From the human T2T-CHM13v2.0 reference genome, Homo sapiens, in the NCBI RefSeq assembly GCF_009914755.1, contig NC_060946.1: 64,000 nucleotides of DNA; one strand, 5' to 3'. How positions within the stretch are numbered: the stretch's first letter is position 1; each line of letters opens with the position of its first letter. This document shows, in pieces, positions 47,583-51,715 of the stretch. The notes beneath the pieces are model-generated. The model was not told the origin of the DNA and searched no databases. It saw only the letters and a program-made list of their open reading frames with translations. A program made the translations under genes and the position numbers.

Positions 47583-47913
<331 letters not shown>

Positions 47914-48959
47914 TAAAAAATAATAATAATAATAATAAAAAATAAAAGATGATACTTGCAAAATACCTCAAGTGTACCTCATTTACCTCAAATATACCTC
48001 ATGGTCCGAAAGTATTTAGTCAGCAACGTACCATTATAGAAAAACACATAGCTTGTGGCTCCAACTTTAAAACCAGAATAACCAAGTGAAAAGTCAGTAC
48101 AGATTCTCACTTCTACTTAAAAAATCAAAGGTACACATTGGGAATTGAACAGCTATGTTTTTTCTTCTTTCTAGAGATGTGACATACATATTTTCTGGTC
48201 AGTAATATTCTACCAATGGTATTAATTCAAAGCAGGTAGATGACCAGCGATGCTGTTTACTACATCCTACGCATGCTGAGATAGATGAGTGGGACACCAT
48301 CTCGGTAGGAAAGAGTTTGACAGGAAGAAGAAACTGCAGAGTCCCTGCCTGTCCCAGAGAACCTAACAAACTGATCTATATGGAAAGGATTTTCAGCAAA
48401 CATGCACAAACACAGTTAATATGCTGGAAGAAGAGGATAGCTTTTAGTCTATTTCCAGCACACGGCCTACACTCACTGGTACCCCATACAACAGGAATGA
48501 ATGCCGACTTAGCATTTTTGCCTTCACAGCGCTGGCAACTAAAAGGCTCACAGATACTCTGATCTTTAAGCAGATAATCATGGAATTCTCAACATCATAT
48601 CCACTAGGTTAGGCTGAGGGTTCATCTATAAAAGTATTTTTCCAAAAATAATGCTTAAAAGAGACTTCTAGAAACAGTGGGACTGTATCAGGATCAACAG
48701 AAGACTTCTTGACCCAAAGATTCAAATATAGAACTAGGAATTGATTTTCACATGTAGTTTTTAGGTAAAGGACATCTCTTTCAGTTGATTCCTACAGCCA
48801 AGACTAGCTTTGATCCTGGGAGATTCAGAAACCTCAAGATGGGTAGCTGGCTTGAGTAACATCCTAGATAATAGTCCCAGTCAAAAACCCCATTGAGGTT
48901 GAAGGACTGGAAACTGACCTGTGTGAAAAAGAGCTATCAGTGCAGGAAAAGACTCATGC

Positions 48960-49609
48960 TGATTTTGACCTTCCTCTGGCCCTTTTCCCTCAACTGCTTG
49001 GTGGGGAGTAGCGAGGAGAAGGAGCATGTGGCACCCTCATTGGAGGCTGGAGCACTGCTGCAGAAAGTGATCTCTTACTCATACTTCAAGACACAGCCTA
49101 AGTATGACCACCTGTATGGACCCTTCCCTAATGCCCAGGATCAAGAAAAGAATGTGGCCACCTTCCAAGGCTCAGAGTAGCTGTGCAATGACCTGTGTCA
49201 AAACCCGATCCAGAGCAGCAGTGATGAAATCACCCTCTCCTTTAAGACCTGGCATTACAATGGCCTCATCCTGCATGTGGGCAAGTCAGCTCTCTGATGG
49301 ATGGTGCAATTTCCTTGGTCATTAACCTGAGGTCTGGGGCCTTTAAAGCTATTGAGGAGCCAGTGAATGGAGAATTCGACAACGCCTGGCATGATTGAGG
49401 GTGACACATCACGGCAGATGATGGCTGAGGAGACATTGCCCAGAAGTCTCATCTTAGGTGGTTGAGTAGGAAGTTTGTGAAGCAGGTGGTGGGTGAGATG
49501 GAGTGGGTAGAGATTCAGGTATGGAGATGTCAGTGTCTAACTTTCTTCTAGTCTTTGCAATTTCACAAGGAAAATCACTAAAATGTGCGTCTCTTCATTT
49601 AAAAGAAAA
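48960..49609 (+). pseudogene. Retroposed neurexin (NRXN3-like) LNS2 exon fragment nested in the ARL2BP pseudogene
   Basis: 49139-49417 reads [83 protein letters not shown]-tail at 49601-49613; TSD AAAAG(AC/T)TCATGC. Confidence 0.9.
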
Positions 49610-50330
49610 AAAAGTTCATGCCAAAGCTGCTGGGACAAAGAGGACTCATGATAGTGGGTTATTCCACACTGTTGACACACTGAATGTATGCTGGCAGAAG
49701 GGCCTCAGGTGGAATGCTGGGCATGGGTTTGCCCCACAGCAGTCTGATTCAAAAGCACCTGAGAGATGGGAGGAGTACTAGGGTTACTAAACACAAGAAG
49801 GTGTTTCAGGAGAAACACATCAAGCCATTTGTTTTTGACCCTTAATACTTAACATGAATGATGAGTTGCAGAACAGTCAGTCTTTCCAAGATGTATTGTT
49901 CTATCCTCAATAGCTGCAGCCTCTCCAAGCCAGTGGGCTGGTGACATCCAGGATGATCCTCTTCCTTGCCTGGAGGTGGGATCTAGTGCCACAGCTTGTT
50001 CGGGGAAGCTGGCATAGAAGATGATTTGCTCAACAAAGTCACCGCTAAACTATCGCTTAGGTCTAGTCCCCGGCCTATGGCACCAAGTACTCCTGGTAGT
50101 ACTTGTACACAGAATTTCTCTATAATAACCAGAACATGTCATCCATGGTAATGTCTGCTACATATCCAACCACAGCATCAAATTCTGTCTGATGAAGGGC
50201 ACCAGCCCCTTCATCTTTATCATGCCTAATATTGTGAAGGCCATGTGCTAAATCCAGCAATCCGCTCCAGTAGGTGTCCTTCAGGATACTTTTCTGTCAA
50301 GTAAATACATTTATTAAAAATAGGCATGTA

Positions 50331-50985
<655 letters not shown>

Positions 50986-51715
50986 AAGCAGGCATGTAGG
51001 TGAGTTGATTTTCTTCCATGTCTTCAAACTCCTGGTAATACTTGTCCACAAAATTTCTCTATAATAACCGGAACATGTCATCCATGATAATGTGTACTAT
51101 ATATCCAACCACAACATCAAATTCTGTATCAGAGGCAGAAGAGAAGGACAGCATGAAGCTCGATTCCTCCAACTGTCCTTTGGCTGGTGGCCCTCCACCC
51201 TGCCCACAGCCCGGCCAGCTCAGCCCCGTCTCTGTCCCATACAGAGCCACAGCCACAGTGAGAGCCTGGCAGCCTGCCCGGAGGAGGCTTCTTGGCCCAG
51301 CCCGGTCAACACCCACATGCACCACCACCAACTTTTTGCTATTGTGAATAACATAGCTGTAAACAGATTGCATATGAAAGTGCTGTGAAATCACCAAGGG
51401 CTGAGTAGAACAGTTAAGACGATAGTAGTTGTTTTCTTTCTGGGTTTTTCTCTTGGGCTGGTTTTTGAAAGTGGATCTACAACATTGATAGAGATCAGTT
51501 TTTCTGCTCTTCCAACATACTGCCAGGACGTGGTCCAGAAAGATTGGGTACTTTGCAATACTCATAGCAATATGTGAAGTGATTGGAAAAAATGAGACTA
51601 TTCAACCAGTTGTTTCAGTGTTGGTTAGGAGGGAAATGCCCAGAAAGGGGAACAGTTAATCATCTACACAATACCAAGAGCAGGAGGGGATGACCGACGG
51701 CTTCATCTTTCCTAG

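What the first reader, a model, noticed from the sequence alone, without database searches (positions are those of the whole stretch)
48947..49621. Neurexin-3-like single-exon retrocopy nested inside another processed pseudogene
A 650-bp plus-strand insert is bounded by AAAAGACTCATGC (48947-48959) and AAAAGTTCATGC (49610-49621). It has an A-tail and a variant poly(A) signal ACTAAA (49577-49582) 18 nt before the tail. Its core (49139-49417) matches the alpha-neurexin LNS2 segment EENVATF...VTRNLRQ with NRXN3-type residues (NVATF, KTW, GLILH, AI.EP). It carries a stop, an approximately 16-nt frameshifting deletion and a codon deletion. Homology stops where I recall the exon borders; the about 180 nt upstream and about 185 nt downstream do not encode neurexin. 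Inference: a fossil of a short, prematurely polyadenylated germline NRXN3 transcript, either with cryptic exons or intron-exon-intron. It is sense to PEX26 and preceded by an acceptor-like CCCTAATGCCCAG.
Basis: partly seen in the sequence, partly recalled or inferred. Interest (0 to 1): 0.7.

Follow-up and report, generated by a model that had tools for sequence, protein, structure and literature searches.

The report
Nested fossil of odd NRXN3 transcript
A 650-base dead copy of an unusual neurexin-3 RNA sits inside an older dead copy of the ARL2BP gene, within the PEX26 3'UTR; it is an ordinary kind of genomic fossil that records a hidden exon of NRXN3.

Summary
Window 48960-49610 is an L1-type retro-insertion with a 12-nt target-site duplication. 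The ARL2BP parent gene on chr16 and 3 other ARL2BP pseudogenes all read straight through the empty site.

- **NRXN3 part:** 49140-49600 matches chr14 at 81% identity. It covers the LNS2 exon plus about 180 nt of the contiguous downstream intron. NRXN1 and NRXN2 match only the exon, at 68% and 67%.
- **Hidden exon:** 49067-49139 is a 70-nt NRXN3-intronic element 7.7 kb upstream (chr14:72845886-72845955). It has AG and GT exactly at the borders of homology, so the source RNA was spliced upstream and unspliced downstream.
- **chr7 detour:** a closer match on chr7 is itself a retrocopy of an antisense RNA from the same NRXN3 intron, not the source.
- **Open points:** the first 107 nt (48960-49066) have no detectable source. 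It is also unsettled whether the A-tail is a true poly(A) added after the intronic ATTAAA or a copied intronic A-run.

This is a new member of a known kind and of modest interest.

The parts
47985..48959 (-). Host: 3'UTR part of the ARL2BP processed pseudogene, left of the insert. It lies beyond the annotated ARL2BPP10 span of 49983..51178.
   Evidence: 76% identity to chr16:63048629-63049596, and similar matches to pseudogenes on chr9, chr17, chr5, chr13, chr15, chr18 and chr12.
48948..48959 (+). Target-site duplication, copy 1 (AAAGACTCATGC).
   Evidence: A single copy, AAAGATTCATGC, is present in 4 of 4 empty sites aligned.
48960..49066 (+). The 5' 107 nt of the insert, source unknown. Presumed to be an upstream exon or exons, or a template-switch partner.
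   Evidence: No match beyond self. No match in 110 kb of chr14 or 40 kb of chr7. No Rfam match there and no protein match.
49067..49139 (+). Copy of a cryptic NRXN3 exon (chr14:72845886-72845955), which lies 7,738 nt upstream of the LNS2 exon.
   Evidence: 56 of 70 ungapped columns are identical to chr14. In chr14, homology starts right after ..ttgtag and ends before GTCAG.
49140..49417 (+). Copy of the NRXN3 exon that encodes the first 100 residues of LNS2 (chr14:72853694-72853995). It is disabled.
   Evidence: 241 of 277 aligned bases identical (87%), with an in-frame TAG and deletions of 16, 3, 1 and 4 nt. The chr14 exon matches neurexin-1alpha residues 229-328, E 2.4e-88, and Pfam Laminin_G_2.
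49418..49600 (+). Copy of the start of the NRXN3 intron that follows the exon. The donor GT reads AT. ACTAAA at 49577-49582 corresponds to ATTAAA in the parent.
   Evidence: 144 of 179 aligned bases identical (80.4%), contiguous with the exon on chr14.
49601..49610 (+). A-rich tail (AAAAGAAAAA).
   Evidence: Read directly. Its origin is ambiguous between poly(A) and a templated A-run.
49611..49621 (+). Target-site duplication, copy 2 (AAAG-TTCATGC, one base lost).
49611..50076 (-). Host: the ARL2BP pseudogene 3'UTR, right of the insert.
   Evidence: 74% identity to chr16:63048160-63048640.

Best explanation
Window 48960-49610 is an old, dead, L1-mediated retrocopy of a partly processed sense transcript of NRXN3.

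**Source RNA, 5' to 3'.**
- At least 107 nt of unplaced sequence.
- A 70-73-nt cryptic exon from the NRXN3 intron, 7.7 kb upstream of the LNS2 exon.
- The exon that encodes the first 100 residues of LNS2.
- About 180 nt of the next intron, unspliced.

**Most likely 3' end (my estimate, about 55-60%).** The RNA ended by cleavage and polyadenylation about 20-30 nt after an intronic ATTAAA.

**Insertion.** L1 endonuclease and reverse transcriptase nicked the T-rich bottom strand of an already resident ARL2BP processed pseudogene. They primed on the A-tail and copied the RNA, leaving a 12-nt duplication. The whole nest now lies in the last exon (long 3'UTR) of PEX26, in the same sense as PEX26.

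**Shown:** nesting, the duplication, NRXN3 origin, removal of the 7.7-kb intron, retention of the downstream intron, and the disabling mutations.

**Inferred:** the L1 machinery, germline expression, the poly(A) site, and the age. The copy itself has no function that I can see.

The confidence given is for the core claim (a nested retrocopy of a partly spliced NRXN3 RNA), not for the poly(A) detail.
For: 1. **Empty site.** 4 of 4 compared ARL2BP sequences (chr16 parent; chr17, chr5, chr13 pseudogenes) are uninterrupted with one copy of AAAGATTCATGC. The flank matches overlap by 12-13 bp on chr16, chr17 and chr5.
2. **NRXN3 origin.** The chr14 match spans 453 nt of the insert at 81% identity. 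The chr2 and chr11 paralogues match at 68% and 67%, over the exon only.
3. **Exon borders.** On chr14 the exon is bounded by ..cctatag| and |GTAATGG, and the insert continues into the intron without a break.
4. **Splicing.** The 73 nt before the exon copy match chr14:72845886-72845955 at 56 of 70 ungapped columns. AG lies directly before the match and GT directly after. The control search of 50 kb with this piece gave E 2e-12.
5. **Poly(A) signal.** The parent has ATTAAA at chr14:72854160-72854165, where the insert has ACTAAA, 18 nt before the A-run.
6. **Target site.** The duplication starts with AAAG, which fits an L1-type nick in a T-rich bottom strand (the consensus is recalled).
7. **Decay.** One stop and four deletions in the exon; K2P distance 0.146 for the exon and 0.232 for the intron.
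Against: - The first 107 nt have no detectable source in NRXN3 (110 kb upstream examined) or anywhere else in the genome. A single-gene origin for the whole insert is therefore not shown.
- The tail may be templated. The parent intron reads ATTTAAG followed by 11 A about 50 nt past ATTAAA, much like the insert's end. The best alignment switches between the two readings with the gap cost.
- The 73-nt piece is closer to a chr7 locus (65 of 73) than to chr14 (56 of 70). I explain this by later changes on chr14, but the counts of lineage-specific changes are uneven: 11 on chr14, 5 on chr7, 2 on the insert.
- No transcript data were available to show that the cryptic exon or the intronic poly(A) site is used today.
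- Today's chr14 cryptic exon has stops in all three frames.
Confidence: 0.87

Rival explanations
1. Same retrocopy, but the source was not a prematurely polyadenylated transcript. It was a nascent, partly spliced NRXN3 pre-mRNA, and reverse transcription was primed on an internal A-run of the intron (chr14:72854215-72854225). On this reading the 'tail' is templated and the insert has lost about 26-31 nt by deletion.
For: With cheap long gaps, the optimal alignment puts the insert's ATTTAAAAGAAAAAAAA on the parent's ATTTAAGAAAAAAAAAAA. Deletions are frequent in this copy: four in the exon and three indel events in the intron part.
Against: With a higher gap cost the insert ends 18-27 nt after ATTAAA, a normal cleavage distance, and needs no long deletion. 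The matching stretch is low-complexity A/T sequence. From recall, L1 retrotransposition in trans normally uses a 3'-terminal poly(A).
Confidence: 0.35
2. The insert is a chimeric retrocopy. The first 107 nt come from an unrelated RNA, joined to the NRXN3 cDNA when the reverse transcriptase switched template, rather than from an upstream NRXN3 exon.
For: No source for 48960-49066 was found in 110 kb upstream of the LNS2 exon. Template switching as a source of chimeric retrocopies is described in passages of PMC5470649, there for LTR elements. The L1 cases are recalled.
Against: The junction at 49066/49067 falls exactly at the AG acceptor of the cryptic exon. Splicing predicts this; a random switch does not. 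No small RNA family matches (1 hit, E 0.95, elsewhere in the insert). No other genomic source was found either.
Confidence: 0.2
3. The 73-nt block comes from chr7, not from NRXN3. The source would then be a trans-spliced or otherwise chimeric chr7-NRXN3 RNA.
For: The chr7 match is the only whole-genome hit for the 5' part and is closer (65 of 73) than chr14 (56 of 70). chr7 also has AG and GT at the borders.
Against: The chr7 element is itself a retro-insertion of about 560 nt. It has a 10-nt duplication (TGGGAAGATT) and a 14-15-T run, and it is 76% identical to chr14:72845252-72846143. On chr14 the sequence continues beyond the chr7 break. Outside a common repeat core, chr7 is the only genomic relative of the chr14 segment (2 chr7 pieces; the other 12 hits all fall in query 445-589). 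A cis-spliced NRXN3 RNA needs no extra assumption.
Confidence: 0.03
4. DNA-level (segmental) duplication of a piece of the NRXN3 locus, with no RNA intermediate.
For: Intron sequence is present downstream of the exon.
Against: 7,738 nt are missing precisely between a GT and an AG. There is also an A-run at the 3' end and a 12-nt duplication of an A-rich target.
Confidence: 0.02

Closest known systems
L1-mediated processed pseudogene (retrocopy)
   Same: Intron removed. A-rich 3' end. 12-nt target-site duplication beginning with A's. Lies on a different chromosome from the parent. Carries disabling mutations. Nested in another retrocopy.
   Different: It covers only one coding exon of a gene that, from recall, has more than 20 exons. 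It keeps about 180 nt of intron, and it starts with non-canonical exon sequence.
Semi-processed (intron-retaining) retrocopies, and retrocopies read as fossils of alternative transcripts (Shemesh et al. 2006, PNAS; recalled, not seen here; the phrase appears in papers listed)
   Same: The copy records a transcript form that is absent from the reference gene model given here: a cryptic exon plus an end inside an intron.
   Different: Present-day use of the cryptic exon and of the intronic poly(A) site was not tested.
Chimeric retrocopies made by template switching of reverse transcriptase (passages of PMC5470649; the L1/U6 cases are recalled)
   Same: A 5' block of unrelated sequence joined to a retrocopied mRNA fragment.
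   Different: The junction here coincides with a splice acceptor, and no small-RNA partner is found.
Internal-promoter neurexin isoforms (beta- and gamma-neurexins; recalled)
   Same: A private 5' exon spliced into a downstream neurexin exon. The reading frame is open from the 5' block into LNS2.
   Different: No start codon of its own lies inside the insert. The modern cryptic exon has stops in all frames. The transcript ends after half an LNS domain.

Membership tests
L1-mediated processed pseudogene | Target-site duplication flanking the insert, with the empty site known. | tested here: met
   A 12-nt duplication. 4 of 4 empty sites aligned are contiguous with one copy. The flank matches overlap by 12-13 bp.
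L1-mediated processed pseudogene | Loss of an intron at canonical splice sites, relative to the parent locus. | tested here: met
   A 7,738-nt interval between GT (chr14:72845956) and AG (chr14:72853693) is absent from the insert.
L1-mediated processed pseudogene | Untemplated poly(A) tail at the 3' end. | tested here: inconclusive
   An A-run lies at 49601-49610, but the parent intron has an 11-A run about 50 nt beyond the aligned end. The alignment depends on the gap cost.
L1-mediated processed pseudogene | Insertion at an L1 endonuclease-like site (T-rich bottom strand). | tested here: met
   The pre-insertion site reads GCAC|AAAGATT, so the bottom strand ends ..ATCTTT at the nick. This is a partial match to the consensus, which is recalled.
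NRXN3-derived (versus NRXN1 or NRXN2) | Closest to the chr14 paralogue, and non-coding flank shared only with it. | tested here: met
   81% identity over 453 nt including intron on chr14, against 68% (chr2) and 67% (chr11) over the exon only. Gene names follow from the known chromosome assignments.
Neurexin LNS2 (laminin G) coding sequence | Protein-level match to the LNS2 domain. | tested here: met
   The parent exon matches neurexin-1alpha residues 229-328, E 2.4e-88, and Pfam Laminin_G_2, E 3.4e-17. The window piece hits 7 of 7 neurexin-1 chains. The window pieces alone gave no Pfam hit (0 families for 3 of 3 window pieces).
Intronic-polyadenylation isoform | Poly(A) signal hexamer 10-30 nt upstream of the 3' end, in the parent intron. 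| tested here: met
   ATTAAA at chr14:72854160-72854165. The insert has ACTAAA 18 nt before its A-run.
Intronic-polyadenylation isoform | Observed use of the site in transcripts. | not testable with these tools
   No transcript or 3'-end data are held. One paper holds both 'NRXN3' and 'intronic polyadenylation' (listing only, not read).

The most novel reading that the evidence does not exclude
The insert may preserve an extinct or unannotated internal-promoter isoform of NRXN3 that was once coding. This would be a private leader exon with a hydrophobic, signal-peptide-like stretch, read in frame through the 73-nt exon into LNS2. It would be a 'start-at-LNS2' neurexin, analogous to beta- and gamma-neurexins.

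The retrocopied RNA would be its intronically terminated by-product. The frame from 48960 into the neurexin frame is open, and only 3.8% of 5000 dinucleotide shuffles keep it open. The chr7 snapshot of the 73-nt exon is open in the same frame, whereas the modern chr14 exon is closed.
Probability: 0.05. Interest if true: 0.55.

Novelty: new member of a known kind. Interest (0 to 1): 0.27.

Why it matters
It matters little for biology at large. Nested retrocopies and partly processed retrocopies are common in the human genome.

Its value is local.
- It is absent from the RefSeq table given for this window.
- It shows that the annotated span of ARL2BPP10 is too short.
- It is direct sequence evidence that, tens of millions of years ago, NRXN3 produced a germline RNA that used a cryptic exon 7.7 kb upstream of the LNS2 exon and ended, or was still unspliced, in the next intron.
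- Together with the chr7 retrocopy of an antisense RNA from the same spot, it marks this part of the NRXN3 intron as transcribed on both strands in the ancestral germline.
- It gives exact coordinates that can be looked up in long-read and 3'-end data.

Tried and rejected
**Source of the first 107 nt. None of these found a source.**
- Whole-genome DNA searches (self only, plus the chr7 hit for the neighbouring block).
- A 40-nt pattern with up to 3 mismatches (self only).
- A six-frame protein search (4 non-self hits, all E above 3).
- The protein database, longer proteins only (5 candidates, none scored).
- Local blastn over chr14:72744000-72853999 and chr7:105367000-105406999 (best E 0.3-0.7).
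- Rfam (one chance-level hit elsewhere in the insert).

The whole-genome search missed the chr14 cryptic exon (about 80% identity over 70 nt), so these blanks are weak evidence.

**chr7 as the source of the 5' exon.** I pursued this idea first, reading the two chr7 blocks as two exons. It was rejected.
- The two blocks are one element, split by a roughly 1.4-kb LTR-like insertion with a 4-bp duplication.
- The element is a retrocopy derived from chr14.

**Papers.**
- 'NRXN3' with 'retrocopy': 0 papers.
- 'neurexin' with 'processed pseudogene': 12 papers, 10 listed; none is about a neurexin pseudogene, judging by title or abstract start.
- 'NRXN3' with 'cryptic exon': 15 papers, 8 listed; from the listing, several are TDP-43 or neurodegeneration papers and the rest are on unrelated topics.
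- I saw listings only, except for passages of PMC5470649.

Full report
**What is there.** The window is human chr22 (T2T-CHM13), and the assembly could be searched. AAAAGACTCATGC lies at 48947-48959 and AAAAGTTCATGC at 49610-49621. An A-run precedes the second repeat, and ACTAAA lies at 49577-49582.

**The host and the empty site.**
- The left flank (47985-48959) matches chr16:63048629-63049596 at 76% identity.
- The right flank (49611-50076) matches chr16:63048160-63048640 at 74%. Both matches are on the opposite strand.
- The two chr16 intervals overlap by 12 bp. Two other copies behave the same way: chr17:556286xx by 12 bp and chr5:1632970xx by 13 bp.
- I take chr16 to be the ARL2BP parent gene. 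An exon piece that lies about 250 nt away in the pseudogenes lies 6 kb away on chr16.
- In a direct alignment, 4 of 4 empty-site sequences (chr16, chr17, chr5, chr13) read ..GTGCAC AAAGATTCATGC AGAGCC.. with one copy of the 12-mer.

So the 651 bases 48960-49610 were inserted into the 3'UTR of a resident ARL2BP processed pseudogene. That pseudogene extends about 2 kb further than its annotated span (49983..51178).

**The NRXN3 part.**
- A whole-genome search with the insert found chr14:72853695-72854176 at 81% identity over insert positions 182-634. It also found chr2 (68%) and chr11 (67%) over the exon only, plus a 39-base hit on chr7.
- By the known chromosome assignments, chr14, chr2 and chr11 are NRXN3, NRXN1 and NRXN2.
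- On chr14 the exon is bounded by ..cctatag| and |GTAATGG.
- Its translation matches neurexin-1alpha residues 229-328 (E 2.4e-88) and Pfam Laminin_G_2.
- The stop-free window piece 49181-49294 hits only neurexin-1 chains (7 of 7).
They differ from the neurexin-1 chain.
- The exon copy (49140-49417) is 241/277 identical. It carries TAG for TAT at 49178-49180 and deletions of 16, 3, 1 and 4 nt.
- The next 183 nt (49418-49600) are 144/179 identical to the intron that directly follows the exon. Downstream, therefore, the source RNA was unspliced.

**The 73 nt before the exon.**
- Homology to chr14 stops at the acceptor of the LNS2 exon.
- At first, the only genomic hit for the 5' part was chr7, in two blocks 1.4 kb apart. 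These looked like two exons of a chr7 gene.
- They are not. The blocks are one 73-nt element, split by an LTR-like insertion that begins TG, ends CA and has a 4-bp duplication.
- Searching with the chr7 element and its flank led back to chr14:72845252-72845911, inside NRXN3 and 7.7 kb upstream of the LNS2 exon.
- chr7 and chr14 share about 560 nt at 76% identity.
- The chr7 copy is bounded by TGGGAAGATT on both sides. A run of 14-15 T follows the first copy, and AATAAA lies 24 nt before the tail on the opposite strand. On chr14 the sequence, which I recognise from memory as MIR-like, continues past the chr7 break.
- Outside that common repeat core, chr7 is the only relative of the chr14 segment in the genome.

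Hence chr7 holds a retrocopy of an RNA antisense to NRXN3, and chr14 is the source of both copies.

In chr14 the element (72845886-72845955) is preceded by ..ttgtag and followed by GTCAG. The window's homology begins and ends exactly there. The count over the 70 ungapped columns is as follows.

| Pattern | Columns |
|---|---|
| All three sequences identical | 51 |
| Insert = chr7, chr14 differs | 11 |
| Insert = chr14, chr7 differs | 5 |
| chr7 = chr14, insert differs | 2 |
| All three differ | 1 |

There is also one 3-nt gap in chr14. I read the excess of changes on chr14 as later change on the chr14 lineage. The numbers are small and uneven. The conclusion is that a 7,738-nt intron was spliced out.

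**The first 107 nt.** No source was found. I tried whole-genome DNA, pattern and six-frame protein searches. I also ran local blastn over 110 kb of chr14 and 40 kb of chr7, with a positive control at E 2e-12, and searched Rfam and a protein database. The whole-genome search is blind at about 80% identity over 70 nt, so absence is weak evidence. Because the junction at 49066/49067 sits on the acceptor of the cryptic exon, I favour an upstream exon over a template switch.

**The reading frame.** The frame from 48960 into the neurexin frame is open. Only 3.8% of shuffles keep it open. The modern chr14 exon has stops in all three frames.

**The 3' end.** The parent intron has ATTAAA where the insert has ACTAAA, 18 nt before the A-run. 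That fits intronic cleavage and polyadenylation. However, the parent also reads ATTTAAG followed by 11 A about 50 nt further on. With cheap long gaps, the insert's end aligns to that run instead. I put true poly(A) at about 55-60%.

**Mechanism and age.** The duplication begins with AAAG, so the bottom strand at the nick ends in ..CTTT. This is the usual signature of L1 target-primed reverse transcription, whose consensus I recall rather than tested. K2P distance is 0.146 for the exon and 0.232 for the intron, which implies about 12-15% change on the insert's lineage. At commonly quoted neutral rates (recalled) that is some 50-70 million years. The host pseudogene is more diverged (74-76%), as nesting requires. 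These dates are inference.

**What is known.** This is a partly processed retrocopy, a known kind of genomic fossil. I found no paper describing it (listings only), and I read only passages of one review. The RefSeq table given for the window does not list it. I could not consult transcript databases, other mammalian genomes or a repeat library.

Noticed in passing
L032/L033 = chr7:105385420-105387381 (T2T), minus strand: A roughly 560-nt L1-type retrocopy of an RNA antisense to NRXN3, covering chr14:72845252-72846143. It has a 10-nt duplication (TGGGAAGATT), a 14-15-T run, and AATAAA 24 nt before the tail. It was later split by a roughly 1.4-kb LTR-like element (TG..CA ends, 4-bp duplication CTAT). 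It shows that this piece of the NRXN3 intron was once transcribed antisense and polyadenylated.
   Followed up: partly
chr4:82587541-82587610 (T2T; not fetched): A 70-nt match at 83% identity to the tail end of the chr7 copy. It may be a second, heavily truncated retrocopy of the same antisense RNA.
   Followed up: no
window 47985-49982: ARL2BPP10 is annotated only at 49983..51178, but homology to the ARL2BP 3'UTR on chr16 runs on to 47985. No T-run (the pseudogene's own tail) is visible left of 47985. An Alu with the duplication CAGCTCTTTCTA sits at about 47600-47900.
   Followed up: partly
window 50089-50188 and 51028-51127: Two direct copies of an ARL2BP coding-exon piece, 91% identical, lie inside the pseudogene. 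An Alu and about 300 nt of other sequence lie between them. This is either a local duplication or two overlapping pseudogene pieces.
   Followed up: no
L041 = chr14:72845321-72845649: A stretch of about 330 nt in the NRXN3 intron, containing two tandem units of about 160 nt, is absent from the chr7 copy. It was probably added on chr14 after the antisense RNA was copied.
   Followed up: no
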